A stretch of DNA of 64,000 bases from an uncultured Ignavibacteriales bacterium (GTDB lineage: Bacteria > Zixibacteria > MSB-5A5 > GN15 > JAAZOE01). Positions within the stretch are counted from its first letter, which is position 1, and the number at the start of each line of letters is the position of its first letter. Of the stretch, positions 42,001 through 51,000 are shown in pieces. Position numbers: made by a program. The DNA lies in NCBI GenBank assembly GCA_964611355.1, contig CAZSYD010000010.1, positions 1-64,000 of the forward strand, in the 5' to 3' direction.

Positions 42001-45000
42001 CGAGTTTACTTACCGCCATTCCAGGTTGAAACAGACGAAGGAAGCGGTGACGGTTGCTTGTTTTCGATTGGAACCGGCAATGAAGCGGGAGATAGAAAAG
42101 AGGACAGAGGAAATACGCCGCCTGCGACGCCGGAATCATCCTATGCAGCCGTGTTCGGCCGGGTGCTTTTTCAAAAACATTGAAGATCCCCGGCAACGGA
42201 ACGGCAAACTGTCAGCCGGGAAGTTGCTTGAGGAGATTGGAGCCAAAGATATCAAGGTCGGCGATGCGGTAGTATTTGAAAAGCATGCCAATATAATTAT
42301 CAATAGCGGGCATGCGAGTTCGAAAGATATACGGCAACTGGCCGATATATTGAAAGAGAAAGTTAAAGAAAAATTCGCCCTCGTACTGGACGAAGAAATC
42401 ATTAGCCTGGGAGATTTTTAGCAAAGGAGGTTCTATAGGCACATATCTAATGATTTGAATTTAACGCCCAATGAATAAACTTATGATTTTGCGGCGTGTG
42501 ACATTCTATATCGCTCTCCTCATACCGGTTGGTGTGGTGTGTCTTATGCCTTTGGCCGAAGCTGCTCCGCCGCAGTTCCACACCACGATGGACTTCCGGT
42601 TCACTCAGCTTTCTTCCTTTCCGGGTCTTGAACCCGGATTCATAATAAGTATTACCCCCGAAGAATACGTTTCTTTTGCCAAGTATGATGTTAGAAGAGA
42701 TTACGAATACTTCTTCGATTATCCCGAATACTCCATTACATTTGCCCGCCGCATAAAAGAAGATTTGAAGTTGATTCAGGTTACCAACGATATCGGCGCC
42801 TTCCAGGGAAGGCGGCTTGAATTGAAACAGCAGGAAATGGAATTTGACATCAACAAACGTTCGCTGGTTCGAGAACAGAGAAAGAAGGCGGGAGGCCTGT
42901 TCCAGATCACGATTCCGATCCCATCAAGAGCCTTTGAATCGATATTCGGCGAGGGAGGAGCCGGTCTGAAAGTTACCGGATATCGCCGCATTACCTTCTC
43001 CGGCCGATCAACCTGGAACGATCAGAAGCAAACGGCTTTTCACCGCCAGTCTAAATTCCCTTCGCTTGATATGGAGCAGGTGTATCGTTTCGATATTACC
43101 GGCACAATCGGATCAAAGATTACCGTCCAGGTCAGCCAGGATTCACGCAACGATCTGCCGTTGGCAAATCGCCTGATTCTCAGGTACCGGGGAGGCGAGG
43201 ACGACGTATTGCAGACTGTTGAGGCCGGCAATACGACATTGAATCTGCCGTCCACGCAATTCCTGAAGTATTCAACCATGGTGCAGGGGCTTTTTGGCTT
43301 TAAGGTCACCGCTCAGATCGCCGACCTGGCCGTTACCACAATTGTATCTCAGGAAAAGGGAACCACAGAGTCGGTTGAAGTAAACGCAGGAACGTCAAGT
43401 GCCAGCACCAAGGTGGTCCGCGATATCGAGTATAAAAAGCGGACGGTTTTCGACCTTGGGCGGTTGCCTCTCTATCGAGCCAGATCGGATGCTCTTACGG
43501 AAGATACGGTTTATGATTTTCTGCCCGGCTATGATTCGATTGTAAGCGCGATCATTTATGTGGATGATATGCCGACCGATCAATCGATTCGAGCCTCGCG
43601 GCCGGCCGGCGTTTGCTATATCGATCCCGATGATCCCAATACCGATGATTCTATCTATACCGCTATTGGAAATTTCGTAGAAGTTGATCCCACCGATTAC
43701 TATGTCAATCCGACAGGATTTTACGTTCTGTTTTTGCGTCCGGTCATCCATTCCAATGACGTTCTGGCGGTTTATCTTGAGGTTAGTCGAGAACGGGGCG
43801 GTTCGACCTATATTGACACCATTGGCGACATCACTACATTGCAGGATACTTTAATCCTGAAACTGATAAAGCCGACTTCCCACACCAGGGTGAATCATCA
43901 TGTTTGGGAGTATGAATGGAGGAATGTTTATTGGCTCGGCGGTTCCAATCTGGATTTGGCCGATCTGGAAGTGGAAATCTATAAAGGTTCGCCAATCGGC
44001 GGCAATCGGGTCGATCCGGATGATCCCAATAATCAGGATGGCGTCAAGTATCTTCAGATTTTCGGGCTGGATCAGTATAACGAAAGCAATCAAAGAATCC
44101 CTGACGGCAAAATAGACAGGAACCTCGGGCTGATCGATCCTACCCTGGGACTCTTATATTTTCCGGACCGGCATCCCTTTGATTCTCCCCTTGCCTTTGA
44201 CAGCACCGAGGATAGCGAACCGATTTTTCTTAAGGACAGCGTTCCGGAAATATACGTTTCCACCAATCAGAGTACTATTAGTCAGTCGTCGGAATATTAT
44301 TTGGCCATAATCTCCAGGCAGCGGGGGGCATCGACGATTAGTCTTAATTCGACCAATATCATTGAAGGTTCTGAGGTTATCACGTACGGCAATACCCGGC
44401 TGACCAAGGGGGTTGATTACAATATCGATTACAACTTTGGATCTCTGACGCTGTTGAAAGACGAATATACCGATATCAATTCCAATCTGTCGATTATGTT
44501 CGAGCGGGCGCCATTCTTTTCTCTCTCCAAGAAAACTCTTCTGGGAACGCGTCTTCTGTACGAACCACATCGCGATTTCAGGATCGGGACGACTATTCTG
44601 TACAAGTCGGACAAATCCACCAATCGCAAACCAAAAATAGGTGAGGAAACTTCCAAGATTCTGGTCGGGGATGTCGATTTCAACTACCGTTTTGAAAGCG
44701 GGCTTATTACCCGTCTGGCGGACGCTATCCCCTTTGTTTCGGCTACATCAACTTCAAATGTTCACATCGCTGGCGAGGCGGCGCAGTCTCGCCCCAATCC
44801 AAATGTTGACGGTCAGGTATATGTCGATGACTTCGAAGGCGCCAAAGACAGCTATTCTCTGGGCATTAAACGGACCATATGGCGTAAATGCTCCAGGCCG
44901 GTGGCCGTGGAAGATACGCTTTCCGAACGCGCACGAATAGGTTGGCACAATCCGATCGACGCTTATTCCGTTAGAGAGATTTGGAATCGCGACGAAGGCG

Positions 45001-48000: not shown

Positions 48001-51000
48001 AGAGAGAGCGGGAGGCTTTTGCGCCTCTCATCTCTTTCAGCATCAGGCCGGTCAGGGCAATACAGACTTCTGCGCGATACGAAACCAATACTTCGACTTC
48101 CACTAATTTCAACGAGGGTACCGGTGAGGTCAGGACGCAAACCAGGAATACATCGAAAAGCATTTCGTTCAGTAGTTCTTGTAATTTCCGCAAACCAACC
48201 GGAATCAAGATACCTATATTGGGGCGGATAAAATTTGAATCCACCATGTCGATATCAGTCAACGTTTCTTATCAGAAGACACGGGGCGAATCGGCCAACG
48301 CCGCCTCCAACTATGAATTTAAACGTACTTCGGAAAAGACCAATCTCAACATCCGGCCGAGCGCATCATACAGTTTCTCTTCGACCGTAAAGGGCGGTCT
48401 GTCAGGCCGATGGCAGGATTCGAATGACCTGCAAACGCGGAGAAAGAGTCATACCCGCGAATTGGGCATCTGGGCGGAGATGCACTTCTAAGGCAAAAAA
48501 TCGTTTGACAATCGACGGCAGCGAAATAACTTGGAAGCATGAATAGAAATCCTTGCAGTATTTTGTCATATTTGTCGCTGATTTTGCCGGCGGCGTTTAT
48601 GGCTGCTTTTTGCCTGTCGTGTGAACCGGAGATAATCAAACCACGTTTTGACGGCCAACGGGCTTTCGATTTTCTAGAAACGCAGGTTGCGTTGGGGCCG
48701 CGCAATCCCGGTTCCCACGGGTGGCATGCGTTCCAGGGGTTGCTCTCGGCTCATCTGGATTCACTCGGTATTAAATATCTAACCCAGCCGTTTGATTACC
48801 ATGATTACCTGACCGATGATACCCTCCATCTCGTAAACTGGATTGCCCACATCAGCCCGGAAACGAATCACCGGATATTGATTTCTGCTCATTACGATTC
48901 CCGGCCCCGTGCAGAGTATGATCCCGATACCAGTCGGCGCGAAGAACCTATCCCGGGCGCCAACGACGGCGCCTCCGGCGTGGCCGTCCTGATGCATCTT
49001 GCCGAACTTATGGCCTCCGCGCCGCCCCGTATCGGCGTTGATCTGATATTTTTTGACGGCGAGGATTACGGCCCGCCGGGAAGAATTGATCAATACCTGC
49101 TGGGTTCCTCGTACTTCGCCTCTCACCATGAACGGGAATACCGCTTCGGGATTCTGCTCGACATGATCGGCGACAGCGACCTGGCTATTTACCGAGAAAG
49201 GTTTTCACAGGAGCGAGCCAGGGAGATCAATGACAAAATATGGGAAGCAGCGGGTCGTTTGGGAGTTACGGCGTTTATTGACAGCGTCAAGCACGGCGTA
49301 ATTGATGATCACCTGTCATTGATGGCGGCGGGAATACCCGCGGTTGATGTAATCGATTTTGACTATCCGTACTGGCACACCCAGGCGGATACCCCCGACA
49401 AATGCAGCGCGGTTTCACTGGAAGCAGTCGGCCGTGTGATGGTAGAAGTCATCTATGACGAATAAAAACTCAAAGCAATTCCAATCGCTGCGTGATTTTC
49501 CGTCGGTCGAAATATTAATCGCACGTAAGACACTGGCACCGTATATCAAAGACCTGACGCGACCGATTGTCGTGCAGACAGTCAGGGAAATTATCGGTAA
49601 GCTGAAAAACAGGTTTAAGTCAGGTGAAAAGACACTGACCGAAAACAACCTGATCGCTGCTGTTAAGGATGAACTTGATCGTCTGAAGCAATTAAGGCTC
49701 AAGCCGGTTATAAACGGCTCCGGCATAATTATTCATACCAACTTGGGCCGCGCGCCGCTTTCCGAGAAAATGATCCAAAACTCTCTTGAAGCCGTTACCG
49801 GATACAGTAATCTGGAGTTTGACCTAAGAAAAGGCAAAAGGGGGCGGCGCGGGTTGTTGATCGAACACCTGCTGGCGGTTCTTTGCGAAACCGAAAGCGG
49901 AACCATTGTGAATAATAACGCGGCGGCCGTGTTTATTATTCTCAACAGCCTGGCCGGTCGTAAAGAAGTGATAATTTCGCGCGGCGAACTGATACAGATT
50001 GGAGGCGGCTTCAAGATACCGGAGATTATGGTGAAATCCGGCGTTCGACTGGTCGAAATCGGCACTACCAACAAGACCACCATTGCGGATTACCGCGCGG
50101 CTGTGACTGATCGGACGCGAATGATATTGAAAGTGCATCGGTCCAATTTCACCCAAACCGGTTTTGTTGAAGAGACTTCAATGAGGGAGCTTTCCGTCCT
50201 GTGCCGCGAGCATGATTTGATCCTGACGCATGATCTGGGGTCGGGTCTTGTTTTTTTCCCGCCGAAAGTGGATATAAAAAATGAACCGAGTGTGGCCGAG
50301 TCGGTCCGTTCGGGCGCCGATCTGACCTGTTTTTCCGGGGATAAATTGCTGGGCGGAACGCAGGCCGGATTGATTGCCGGACGCCGCGATTTAATTGCCA
50401 AAATAAAAAAGAATCCGCTTTTCCGAACAATCAGATGCGACAAAATCGTCTTTTCCATGATGGAACAAGTGTTAATGTCATCCCTGAACGGGGCCCAATT
50501 TGATGACCTGCCGATCTGGCGGATGATGACCGCACCCATTACCGATTTGAAAAGAAGGGGCAAAAATATAATATCTGCCTGCGGTGGCTGTGATGTGACC
50601 CTTGAGGCGACACGCGCCTATCCGGGCGGCGGATCGACTCCGACGCAGTCGATACCCTCGCTGGCCGTATCATTGCAATCCCCGGTCAAAGTCAACAGCC
50701 TTGCGGCGCGATTTCGCCTGTATTCGCCGCCGATCATCGGCCGGGTGGAAAACGATAAATTCCTGATTGACCTGCGCGCCGTTCCGCCTGAAAAAGATCA
50801 TATTATCATCAAAGCTATCAATCGTATTTTGGGGTAAGCATGTTCGTTCTGGGGACAGCCGGGCATATTGACCACGGCAAATCGTCTCTTATAAAGGCGA
50901 TGACCGGCATCGACCCTGACCGTCTGCCGGAAGAAACCGAACGCGGGATGACCATCGATATAGGCTTCGCCTGGCTGCGGCTCCCTGACGGCCGGGAAAT

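What a model noticed while it worked through the whole genome (the two positions that open the first line are those of the whole stretch)
42471..48491. Type IX secretion parts and 36 CTD cargo proteins, but no PorK/L/M/N (GldKLMN) motor-ring module
The genome has the outer-membrane half of a type IX secretion system: the Sov/SprA translocon (g00715, here), the sortase PorU with PorV beside it (g00690-g00691, C10:4567-11388), eight more PorV/PorQ-family barrels, the regulator PorX (g01286) and 36 proteins with a type-A C-terminal sorting domain. None of the four trans-envelope core parts that power secretion in Bacteroidota (PorL/GldL-PorM/GldM motor, PorK/GldK-PorN/GldN ring) was found, here or in other near-complete Zixibacteria genomes. 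Either these bacteria drive SprA-dependent export by another energy module, or their motor proteins are too diverged to be recognised.
Evidence so far: ncbifam.tsv at curated cut-offs: SprA 1, PorU 1, PorV/PorQ 9, PorX 1, T9SS type A sorting domain 36 genes, no Gld/PorK-N model; pfam.tsv: no GldL/GldM/GldN/FGE-sulfatase row. Six-frame search with NCBIfam GldM (TIGR03517) and GldL (TIGR03513) at E<=0.01: no match in this genome, 96.4% complete; GldL in 0 of 25 and GldM in 0 of 13 Zixibacteria genomes of at least 95% completeness at E<=0.001. relatives.tsv: Por_Secre_tail in 281, PorV in 275, Peptidase_C25 in 274, SprA_N in 170 of 284 Zixibacteria. PorL/M motor and PorK/N ring are called the trans-envelope core (PMC8754138, abstract in call 166); no paper with Zixibacteria + type IX secretion.
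(Added by a program. Inside this text positions count along the whole contig: contig position 1 is position 1 of the stretch shown here. "Call 12" and the like, gene names such as g00115 and contig names such as C1 are that model's own, and its searches are not shown. The text may have been shortened before it was handed on; [...] marks where a part breaks off. The agent that wrote the report below was given it as the finding of a first reader that could run no searches.)

Follow-up and report, generated by a model that had tools for sequence, protein, structure and literature searches.

The report
Type IX secretion without its motor
This Zixibacteria genome keeps the outer-membrane pore, shuttle, sortase and about forty cargo proteins of the type IX secretion system but has no detectable trace of the motor and ring thought to power it, which raises the question of how the pore is driven.

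Summary
The ORF at 42471-48491 is a real SprA/Sov translocon (567 bits, cut-off 200). The genome also holds PorU, nine PorV/PorQ barrels, PorX and 41 type-A sorting domains.

I found no GldK/L/M/N, PorP/SprF or FGE-sulfatase protein. The tests were six-frame family searches and an exhaustive local HMM search of all 12,948 ORFs.

In 151 Zixibacteria genomes, seven listed as one contig, SprA is in 150. GldM and GldN are in 0, and GldK and GldL_N are above cut-off in 0.

The pattern is wider than Zixibacteria. In the 121-genome Bacteroidota sample, 96 have SprA and only 30 have GldL/M/N. One genome without them carries a protein identical to one named Rhodothermus marinus.

One caution: a Balneolales genome hides a strongly diverged gldL-M-N-K operon. 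Profiles that include it still find nothing here.

Most likely the energy chain is truly missing. How export is driven remains open. I call this a new variant of a known system, interest about 0.7.

The parts
42471..48491 (+). SprA/Sov outer-membrane translocon, 2006 aa, with a signal peptide
   Evidence: TIGR04189 566.6 bits, cut-off 200. Matches solved SprA 6h3i_A at E 2.2e-45. Full-length relatives at 33-61% identity are named SprA of Zixibacteria.
4546..8442 (+). PorU sortase (C25 peptidase) with its own C-terminal sorting domain
   Evidence: NF033707 625.2 bits, cut-off 420. Pfam Peptidase_C25 at 1.5e-75. TIGR04183 at aa 1201-1280.
8452..11388 (+). PorV-family barrel, 978 aa. The barrel is split by an insert of about 640 aa (aa 19-77 and 718-977 match PorV models).
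   Evidence: NF033709 254.4 bits, cut-off 90. NF033710 193 bits. N-terminus matches NF052325 PorV2. Solved PorV 6h3i_F at E 9.3e-23.
11449..14907 (+). Cargo: M6-like metalloprotease relative with FG-GAP repeats and a type-A sorting domain
   Evidence: NF052323 318.7 bits (below its cut-off of 600). TIGR04183 30 bits, cut-off 23.
14918..16591 (+). Two DUF5683-like secreted proteins in the same gene string; role unknown
   Evidence: Pfam PF18935 23.1 and 25.4 bits, just under its cut-off of 26.7. N-terminal hydrophobic signal only. A third DUF5683 gene lies two genes from another PorV-family gene on C19.
16594..17568 (+). NHL-repeat beta-propeller, lipoprotein-like N-terminus; same gene string
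   Evidence: Pfam NHL 2.6e-40; sequence.
17552..20863 (+). Giant outer-membrane beta-barrel, 1103 aa, of an unnamed family; same gene string
   Evidence: AF2 model pLDDT 82.9, almost all beta. Invariant C-terminal Phe in 35 relatives. Only generic large-barrel matches. No Pfam family at E<=0.001; the only NCBIfam row is a 29-bit SprA motif match, and two relatives get no NCBIfam family at all.
20808..22541 (+). Omp85/POTRA protein, 577 aa; last gene of the string
   Evidence: Pfam POTRA and Omp85. TIGR03303 91.6 bits, below cut-off.

Best explanation
This is an outer-membrane-only type IX system. Cargo crosses the inner membrane by Sec. Its type-A C-terminal domain is then taken up by the SprA barrel, handed to a PorV-family barrel, and cut and attached by the PorU sortase.

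The Bacteroidia energy chain is genuinely missing. That chain is the GldL/M (PorL/M) proton motor, the GldK/N (PorK/N) ring or track, and the PorP/SprF-type linkers.

I think it most likely that no dedicated trans-envelope motor exists. Export would then be made one-way by binding to the shuttle, folding outside the cell, and the irreversible sortase step, as in other outer-membrane secretion routes.

Shown: the parts present and the lack of detectable homologues. Inferred: that the system is active and how it is driven.
For: Parts present.

No homologue in the own genome:
- Six-frame family searches at E<=10.
- phmmer with eight K/L/M/N proteins.
- hmmsearch --max with my own profiles of 37 GldL, 37 GldM and 31 GldN sequences against 12,948 ORFs. 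Best E-values were 0.042, 0.052 and 0.21, and the hits I inspected were coiled-coil noise.
- 150 GldM-like representatives used as queries; best E 0.0057.

The whole chain is missing, not one gene: no FGE-sulfatase domain at all, and no PorP/SprF.

Not an assembly gap. In 151 Zixibacteria genomes: SprA 150, GldM 0, GldN 0, GldK 0 over cut-off, GldL_N 0 over cut-off. Seven are listed as one contig.

The searches do work.

SprA is kept as an intact frame of about 2000 aa across the phylum.

I saw no inner-membrane-type gene in the PorU-PorV string. The six gene products I inspected start with a signal-like hydrophobic N-terminus.

Three PorV-family genes sit beside cargo that matches a sorting-domain model.

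The same make-up occurs in 66 of 96 SprA-bearing genomes of a Bacteroidota sample. One of them carries a protein identical to one named Rhodothermus marinus. A CTD-bearing xylanase of that species is reported as cell-attached (Karlsson 2004, as cited in PMC6539836, passages read).

In Fibrobacter, peptides of mature enzymes do not cover the C-terminal domain (PMC6851124, passages).

From established knowledge, not from a call: autotransporters, two-partner secretion and chaperone-usher export work without inner-membrane energy.
Against: In F. johnsoniae, disrupting the motor traps the T9SS in the act of substrate transport (PMC10994853, abstract). An SprA-type pore may therefore need outside energy to release its load.

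A full-length PorX is kept. In P. gingivalis PorX is reported to touch PorL; this is recalled, not checked.

A Balneolales genome shows that gldL-M-N-K can diverge until the curated models almost fail: 24.0 bits for L, 36 bits for M, nothing for N.

The models and my own profiles are built mostly from Bacteroidia. No proteome-wide structure comparison was possible.

No expression or protein data exist for this organism.
Confidence: 0.4

Rival explanations
1. The Bacteroidia chain is missing, but another proton-driven inner-membrane module does its work. The genome has one ExbB-ExbD-ExbD-TonB set (C18), TolQ-TolR-TolA-TolB (C8) and a second MotA/MotB pair (C44) besides the flagellar one (C9).
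For: There are four MotA/ExbB-family loci, with the neighbours and domains listed. GldL/M belongs to the same 5:2 motor class (established knowledge). The motor-disruption result in F. johnsoniae suggests energy is needed (PMC10994853, abstract). One PorV-family gene lies next to a TonB-dependent-receptor-like barrel (L247). Another lies about 3.6 kb from the C44 MotA/MotB pair, on the other strand.
Against: Each set has an ordinary explanation: Tol-Pal, TonB uptake (a TonB-dependent receptor is present), and flagellar stators with MotA_N, MotB plug and OmpA domains. None lies in a T9SS gene string. There is no periplasm-spanning partner like GldM. SprA is near-universal in the phylum (150 of 151), so co-occurrence could not be tested.
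Confidence: 0.3
2. GldL/M (and perhaps K/N) homologues exist but are too diverged for sequence profiles.
For: The Balneolales-type genome G027 has gldL-like (241 aa, PF22827 24.0 bits, exactly at cut-off), gldM-like (380 aa, TIGR03517 E 4e-9), an unnamed 309-aa gene and a 660-aa FGE-sulfatase gene in one string. Its GldM-like family is small: 21 relatives.
Against: Profiles and single queries that include these forms find nothing in the own genome. The well-conserved FGE-sulfatase domain is absent from the own genome. Elsewhere in the phylum, the six loci I inspected of the roughly 440-aa class are EgtB-like, each beside an EgtD-like gene (read from the ORF order and N-terminal sequence, no family search), and the remaining matches sit in shorter (260-420 aa) or much longer ORFs. 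None of the 12 loci whose neighbours I listed lies in an L/M/N-like string. Two topology screens for a 2-TM gene next to a 1-TM periplasmic gene gave 6 and 14 pairs; most pairs had a member in an ordinary family, and none matched a Gld family. Results were 0 of 151 for GldM and GldN.
Confidence: 0.17
3. The parts are a relic, or serve something other than secretion, so no energy source is needed.
For: No expression or proteome data exist. No RNA run holds the stretch (this is no evidence either way).
Against: SprA is an intact frame of about 2000 aa in 150 of 151 genomes that differ by up to two thirds of their residues. There are 41 sorting domains, a full PorU and a full PorX. That much conservation is not expected of a relic.
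Confidence: 0.1
4. The motor genes lie in the unassembled part of this 110-contig genome.
For: Completeness is 96.36%.
Against: 0 of 151 genomes have GldM or GldN, and 0 have GldK or GldL_N over cut-off. Seven of these are listed as one contig.
Confidence: 0.01

Closest known systems
Type IX secretion system of Bacteroidia (Flavobacterium johnsoniae, Porphyromonas gingivalis)
   Same: Homologous SprA/Sov translocon, PorV shuttle, PorU sortase, PorX regulator and type-A C-terminal sorting domains on many cargo proteins.
   Different: No GldL/PorL, GldM/PorM, GldK/PorK or GldN/PorN, no PorP/SprF family and no FGE-sulfatase protein at all. The organism has flagellar genes beside MotA/MotB (C9; read from their order and N-terminal sequences, not family-searched). 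SprA is about 400 aa shorter. PorV carries a 640-aa insert. PorV-family barrels number nine.
Diverged gldL-M-N-K string of a Balneolales-type genome (G027, locus L173)
   Same: It lies outside the stratum that carries canonical genes and is nearly invisible to curated models, so it shows what a hidden motor could look like.
   Different: It is still recognisable by weak hits, gene order and an FGE-sulfatase gene. The profile built from it hits named GldM proteins. Nothing comparable is found in the window's genome.
C-terminal-domain secretion in Fibrobacter succinogenes and Rhodothermus marinus
   Same: These lie outside Bacteroidia and have CTD cargo with evidence of processing or cell attachment (PMC6851124 passages; Karlsson 2004 as cited in PMC6539836). 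The genome I take for R. marinus has SprA but no GldL/M/N match.
   Different: Neither paper lists the machinery genes. I could not search a Fibrobacter genome.
Energy-independent outer-membrane export (autotransporters, two-partner secretion, chaperone-usher)
   Same: A possible working analogy: a barrel in the outer membrane, with direction given by folding or assembly outside the cell.
   Different: No homology. This analogy is inference from established knowledge and was not tested here.

Membership tests
Type IX secretion system, full Bacteroidia type | SprA/Sov translocon | tested here: met
   TIGR04189 566.6 bits, cut-off 200; 6h3i_A at E 2.2e-45.
Type IX secretion system, full Bacteroidia type | PorV shuttle and PorU sortase | tested here: met
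   NF033707 625 bits and NF033709 254 bits. Nine PorV-family places over cut-off.
Type IX secretion system, full Bacteroidia type | Cargo with type-A C-terminal sorting domain | tested here: met
   41 six-frame matches over the TIGR04183 cut-off.
Type IX secretion system, full Bacteroidia type | PorL/GldL - PorM/GldM proton motor | tested here: not met
   Own genome. Phylum: GldM 0 of 151, GldL_N 0 of 151 over cut-off. Controls positive. Remote homologues below profile detection are not excluded.
Type IX secretion system, full Bacteroidia type | PorK/GldK - PorN/GldN ring or track | tested here: not met
   Own genome: GldK none, GldN none, FGE-sulfatase none at E<=10. Phylum: GldN 0 of 151, GldK 0 of 151 over cut-off, best 98 of 350 bits. 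GldN control 30 of 121. GldK has only a protein-level control on the FGE domain.
Type IX secretion system, full Bacteroidia type | PorP/SprF-family linker barrels | tested here: not met
   PF11751: only a 17.5-bit cross-hit on a PorV-family gene. None of the 14 control genomes passed the cut-off, so there is no positive control for this model.
Type IX secretion system, full Bacteroidia type | PorW/SprE, PorT/SprT, PorG, PorZ, PorE, plug protein | not tested
Type IX secretion system, full Bacteroidia type | PorX response regulator | tested here: met
   NF052313 637 bits, cut-off 300, full length, at C24:17329-18897.

The most novel reading that the evidence does not exclude
The SprA-PorV-PorU module is the old secretion and surface-sorting system of the wider Bacteroidota-Zixibacteria group, and it works without any rotary motor. 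The GldL/M motor and GldK/N track would then be a later addition, in the line leading to Bacteroidia (with a diverged copy in some Balneolales), that tied secretion to gliding.

This would reverse the order proposed by Liu et al. 2025 (PMC12635249, discussion passages read), who infer that the T9SS first evolved as part of the gliding machinery. It would also mean that the SprA pore can run on a still unknown driving principle.
Probability: 0.4. Interest if true: 0.85.

Novelty: new variant of a known kind. Interest (0 to 1): 0.7.

Why it matters
[quoted passage not shown] Disrupting the motor stalls the translocon in F. johnsoniae (PMC10994853, abstract).

If a whole phylum, and most SprA-bearing lineages outside Bacteroidia, keep the pore, shuttle, sortase and dozens of cargo proteins without that core, one of two things follows. 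Either the pore has a second, unknown way of being driven, or a very different motor awaits discovery. Either answer bears on how the system works and how it arose.

The question is testable because a cultured and, as I recall, genetically tractable species (Rhodothermus marinus) seems to share this make-up.

It also matters for annotation. Tools that demand GldK-N report 'no T9SS' for these phyla (PMC4793230), even though their surface enzymes carry T9SS sorting signals.

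Tried and rejected
- **Language-model look-alikes:** searches for GldM and GldL with their own Pfam families left out gave best scores of 0.75 and 0.83, below the tool's level for a lead.
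- **Weak model hits in the own genome**, all rejected. C9:44600-44782 is a short coiled-coil ORF just after a large conserved-looking gene. C7:66880-66999 lies in a 748-aa multi-pass membrane ORF that looks ComEC-like by eye. C67 is a chemoreceptor-like fragment.
- **GldL_N fragments in five Zixibacteria genomes:** these are 24-33-residue pieces, below cut-off. Three lie in ORFs of about 1015 aa and two in short ORFs of 66 and 134 aa.
- **FGE-sulfatase genes of other Zixibacteria as possible GldK:** the six loci inspected of the roughly 440-aa class are EgtB-like, each next to an EgtD-like gene (my reading of the ORFs). The short ones have no L/M/N-like neighbours in the six loci listed.
- **N-terminal motif scan** for a GldM-like Arg...Tyr membrane helix: 20 ORFs; by their N-terminal sequences, and for two of them the neighbouring genes, none looked GldM-like.
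- **Gene neighbours of SprA in the window:** recG, DUF1844, murB, an M28 peptidase, selA and selB. These are uninformative.
- **The 1103-aa barrel as a stand-in for the ring:** rejected. The family is also present in the genomes that carry GldL/M/N, 84 of 121 in all.
- **Near the FGE genes of the Rhodothermus-like genome:** no K-L-M-N-like string.
- **RNA evidence:** no RNA holder listed for the SprA stretch. Only DNA runs labelled salt marsh, marsh or sediment hold it.
- **Papers:** McBride and Zhu 2013 is not held under the id I tried.
- **Literature searches** that found no report of T9SS parts without PorK-N in these phyla.

Full report
**What lies at the coordinates.** Window 42471-48491 (+) is a single open frame of 2006 aa. 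It scores 566.6 bits on NCBIfam TIGR04189, the T9SS outer-membrane translocon Sov/SprA, whose cut-off is 200. It matches the solved Flavobacterium johnsoniae SprA (6h3i_A, E 2.2e-45). Full-length relatives at 33-61% identity are named SprA of Zixibacteria where a source gives a name. Its neighbours are recG, a DUF1844 gene, murB, an M28 peptidase, selA and selB, and they say nothing about secretion.

**The rest of the system.** One gene string at the start of the window holds, in order:
- PorU (4546-8442; NF033707 625 bits, cut-off 420).
- A 978-aa PorV-family barrel (8452-11388; NF033709 254 bits; solved PorV E 9.3e-23).
- A cargo protein with a type-A sorting domain (11449-14907).
- Two DUF5683-like proteins.
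- An NHL propeller.
- A 1103-aa barrel.
- An Omp85/POTRA protein.

Genome-wide I count nine PorV/PorQ-family places over cut-off, out of 14 matches. There are 41 six-frame matches over the TIGR04183 cut-off, out of 42 at E<=0.001. PorX is full length at C24:17329-18897 (NF052313 637 bits, cut-off 300), with a histidine kinase directly upstream.

**Absence in this genome.** Six-frame family searches at E<=10 gave:
- GldM best E 0.097.
- GldL best E 0.267.
- GldK nothing.
- GldN nothing.
- Pfam GldL_N best E 0.07.
- FGE-sulfatase nothing.
- PorP/SprF only a 17.5-bit cross-hit on a PorV-family gene.

The weak hits are noise: a short coiled-coil ORF and a multi-pass membrane ORF that looks ComEC-like by eye.

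That tool uses a loose first look, so I also laid the genome in the script box. I took all 12,948 ORFs of 50 aa or more in six frames and searched them without filters.
- Eight single GldK/L/M/N proteins from two genomes gave nothing.
- My own HMMs of 37 GldL, 37 GldM and 31 GldN sequences gave best E-values of 0.042, 0.052 and 0.21.
- The 150 best representatives of a GldM-like profile search gave best E 0.0057 over 150 queries.

**Positive controls.**
- GldL was then found over cut-off in 5 of 5 genomes.
- In a sample of 121 genomes of that phylum, GldM was found in 31 (30 over cut-off), Pfam GldL_N in 31 (30 over cut-off) and Pfam GldN in 30, always the same 30 handles.
- At protein level, the Flagellimonas operon gives clean GldK/L/M/N domain hits.

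The searches therefore work where the genes exist. PorP/SprF has no such control.

**The phylum.** The sample was 151 Zixibacteria genomes, 150 of them at least 90% complete and at most 5% contaminated.

| Family | Result |
|---|---|
| SprA | 150 of 151 |
| GldM | 0 at E<=0.01 |
| GldN | 0 |
| GldL_N | 0 over cut-off; five short fragments |
| GldK | 0 over cut-off; best 98 of 350 bits |

Seven of these genomes are listed as one contig, so an assembly gap is not the explanation. FGE-sulfatase domains occur in 67 of 151. The six loci I inspected of the roughly 440-aa class look like EgtB next to EgtD (my reading of the ORFs). The short ones have no L/M/N-like neighbours in the six loci I listed.

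**The caution.** One genome of the Bacteroidota sample is G027, whose GldM-like protein is identical over its length to one named Cyclonatronum. It has a string of a 241-aa GldL-like gene (PF22827 24.0 bits, exactly at cut-off), a 380-aa GldM-like gene (TIGR03517 E 4e-9), an unnamed 309-aa gene and a 660-aa FGE-sulfatase gene. A profile of this GldM-like family (A1) hits true GldM in two other genomes. In an exhaustive search of 1.84 billion representatives it finds 598 proteins at E<=0.001; of ten looked up, three clusters carry a name and all three are named GldM. So these genes can diverge until curated models nearly fail. I included these forms in every own-genome search, and they found nothing.

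**The pattern is wider than Zixibacteria.** In the same 121-genome sample SprA is present in 96. Only 30 of these have GldL/M/N, and one more has the diverged string. The hits fall on every fifth, later every fourth, handle. I read this as an even draw from several groups, of which one (Bacteroidia, by the names) carries the chain. The tool tells no kinship for these handles, so this reading is my inference.

One genome without the chain, G012, carries a protein identical to one named Rhodothermus marinus, on a contig of the same length. Another is labelled Rhodothermia. I saw no K-L-M-N-like string near the FGE genes of G012. A CTD-bearing xylanase of R. marinus is reported as cell-attached (Karlsson 2004, as cited in PMC6539836, passages read). 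In Fibrobacter the C-terminal domain is missing from mature enzymes (PMC6851124, passages read). These reports suggest that CTD sorting is active outside Bacteroidia.

**Possible other energy sources.** The genome has four MotA/ExbB-family loci:
- A Tol-like string on C8: a MotA/ExbB-family gene followed by genes I read, from order and size, as TolR, TolA and TolB.
- MotA/MotB on C9, followed by flagellar-looking genes (read from order and N-terminal sequences).
- ExbB-ExbD-ExbD-TonB with a TPR gene on C18.
- A second MotA/MotB pair on C44, with MotA_N, MotB-plug and OmpA domains.

All have ordinary explanations, and none lies in a T9SS gene string. Two screens looked for a small two- or three-helix membrane gene next to a single-helix periplasmic gene. 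They gave 6 and 14 pairs. Most pairs had a member in an ordinary family (NfeD/Band 7, CorC, DegP, LapA/LapB, sugar transferase and others), a few members had no family hit, and none matched a Gld family. Because SprA is in nearly every Zixibacteria genome, co-occurrence could not be used.

**Comparison with what is known.** The field describes PorL/M and PorK/N as the trans-envelope core (PMC8754138, abstract in a search listing). The latest model has the GldL/M motor moving a GldK/N track to which PorG and SprF are disulfide-linked, which in turn energises the translocon. Its authors infer that the T9SS first arose within the gliding machinery (PMC12635249, abstract and passages). Disrupting the motor traps the T9SS in mid-transport (PMC10994853, abstract).

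SprA has been called specific to the Fibrobacterota-Chlorobiota-Bacteroidota group and absent from Chlorobiota (PMC12611786, passages). That fits the SprA-less group in my sample. A survey that requires the full gene set found T9SS only in Bacteroidetes (PMC4793230, passages).

I found no paper stating that these other lineages keep the outer-membrane parts without the chain. Subscription papers and supplements I did not open may hold it; in particular the supplementary tables of PMC12611786 may list more than SprA.

**How it most likely works, and the odds.**
- *Shown:* the translocon, shuttle family, sortase, regulator and cargo are present and conserved, and no homologue of the chain is detectable.
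- *Inferred:* the system is active.

I put about 0.8 on true absence of GldK-N homologues. Within that:
- About 0.4 that there is no dedicated motor, with direction given by shuttle binding, folding outside and the sortase step.
- About 0.3 that another proton-driven module is used.
- About 0.1 that it is a relic or serves another use.

A cryptic diverged motor gets about 0.17, and an assembly gap about 0.01.

**Limits.**
- The family models and my profiles are built mainly from Bacteroidia.
- The phylum searches rest on the tool's first look and on samples.
- I could not scan whole proteomes by structure.
- PorW/SprE, PorT, PorG, PorZ, PorE and the plug protein were not tested.
- No RNA run holds the stretch, so nothing can be said on expression.

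Noticed in passing
window 8452-11388: The PorV next to PorU is 978 aa. Residues 19-77 and 718-977 match PorV models, so the barrel seems to carry an insert of about 640 aa with no family match.
   Followed up: partly
window 17552-20863: A 1103-aa protein in the PorU-PorV gene string is predicted, at pLDDT 82.9, to be a giant beta-barrel with an invariant C-terminal Phe. Its family has no Pfam or NCBIfam name. It occurs in Zixibacteria, Cloacimonadota and Eisenbacteria, and in 84 of 121 sampled Bacteroidota. No match is listed for the 20 SprA-less genomes named. It shares only a short repeated motif with SprA.
   Followed up: yes
L173:3830-8662 (handle G027): A strongly diverged gldL-like, gldM-like, unnamed, FGE-sulfatase gene string in a Balneolales-type genome, in the order L-M-N-K rather than K-L-M-N. 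The GldM-like protein is only 380 aa.
   Followed up: yes
L244:347-4999; L245:2633-6707; L246:1508-5000: Several PorV-family barrel genes lie directly beside genes for proteins that match a C-terminal sorting-domain or FlgD-Ig model, as if each cargo had its own barrel partner.
   Followed up: partly
L248:4399-6219: A PorV-family barrel fused to a C-terminal TPR region (606 aa), downstream of a 1466-aa protein with no family.
   Followed up: no
L243:3323-6402: A third DUF5683 gene (with a PEGA domain) and a Bac_transf sugar transferase lie next to a PorV-family gene on C19. DUF5683 thus sits close to PorV-family genes at two places in this genome.
   Followed up: no
L257:3068-5897: PorX (637 bits) has a 408-aa sensor histidine kinase directly upstream, a possible PorY counterpart. 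PorX is kept although its reported partner PorL (recalled) is absent.
   Followed up: partly
window 25542-33910: A string of DUF58, VWA (BatA-like), TPR and BatD genes, like the Bat aerotolerance cluster of Bacteroides. A similar BatD and TPR string is seen in a Rhodothermia genome (L171).
   Followed up: no
window 49455-52738: selA and selB lie just downstream of SprA and the M28 peptidase, so the organism probably makes selenoproteins.
   Followed up: no
L206:8362-9741 and L209:8416-10808, among others: In six Zixibacteria genomes the FGE-sulfatase hit of about 440 aa looks like EgtB followed by an EgtD-like methyltransferase. This would be an ergothioneine pathway; the reading rests on ORF order and sequence, not on a family search.
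   Followed up: partly
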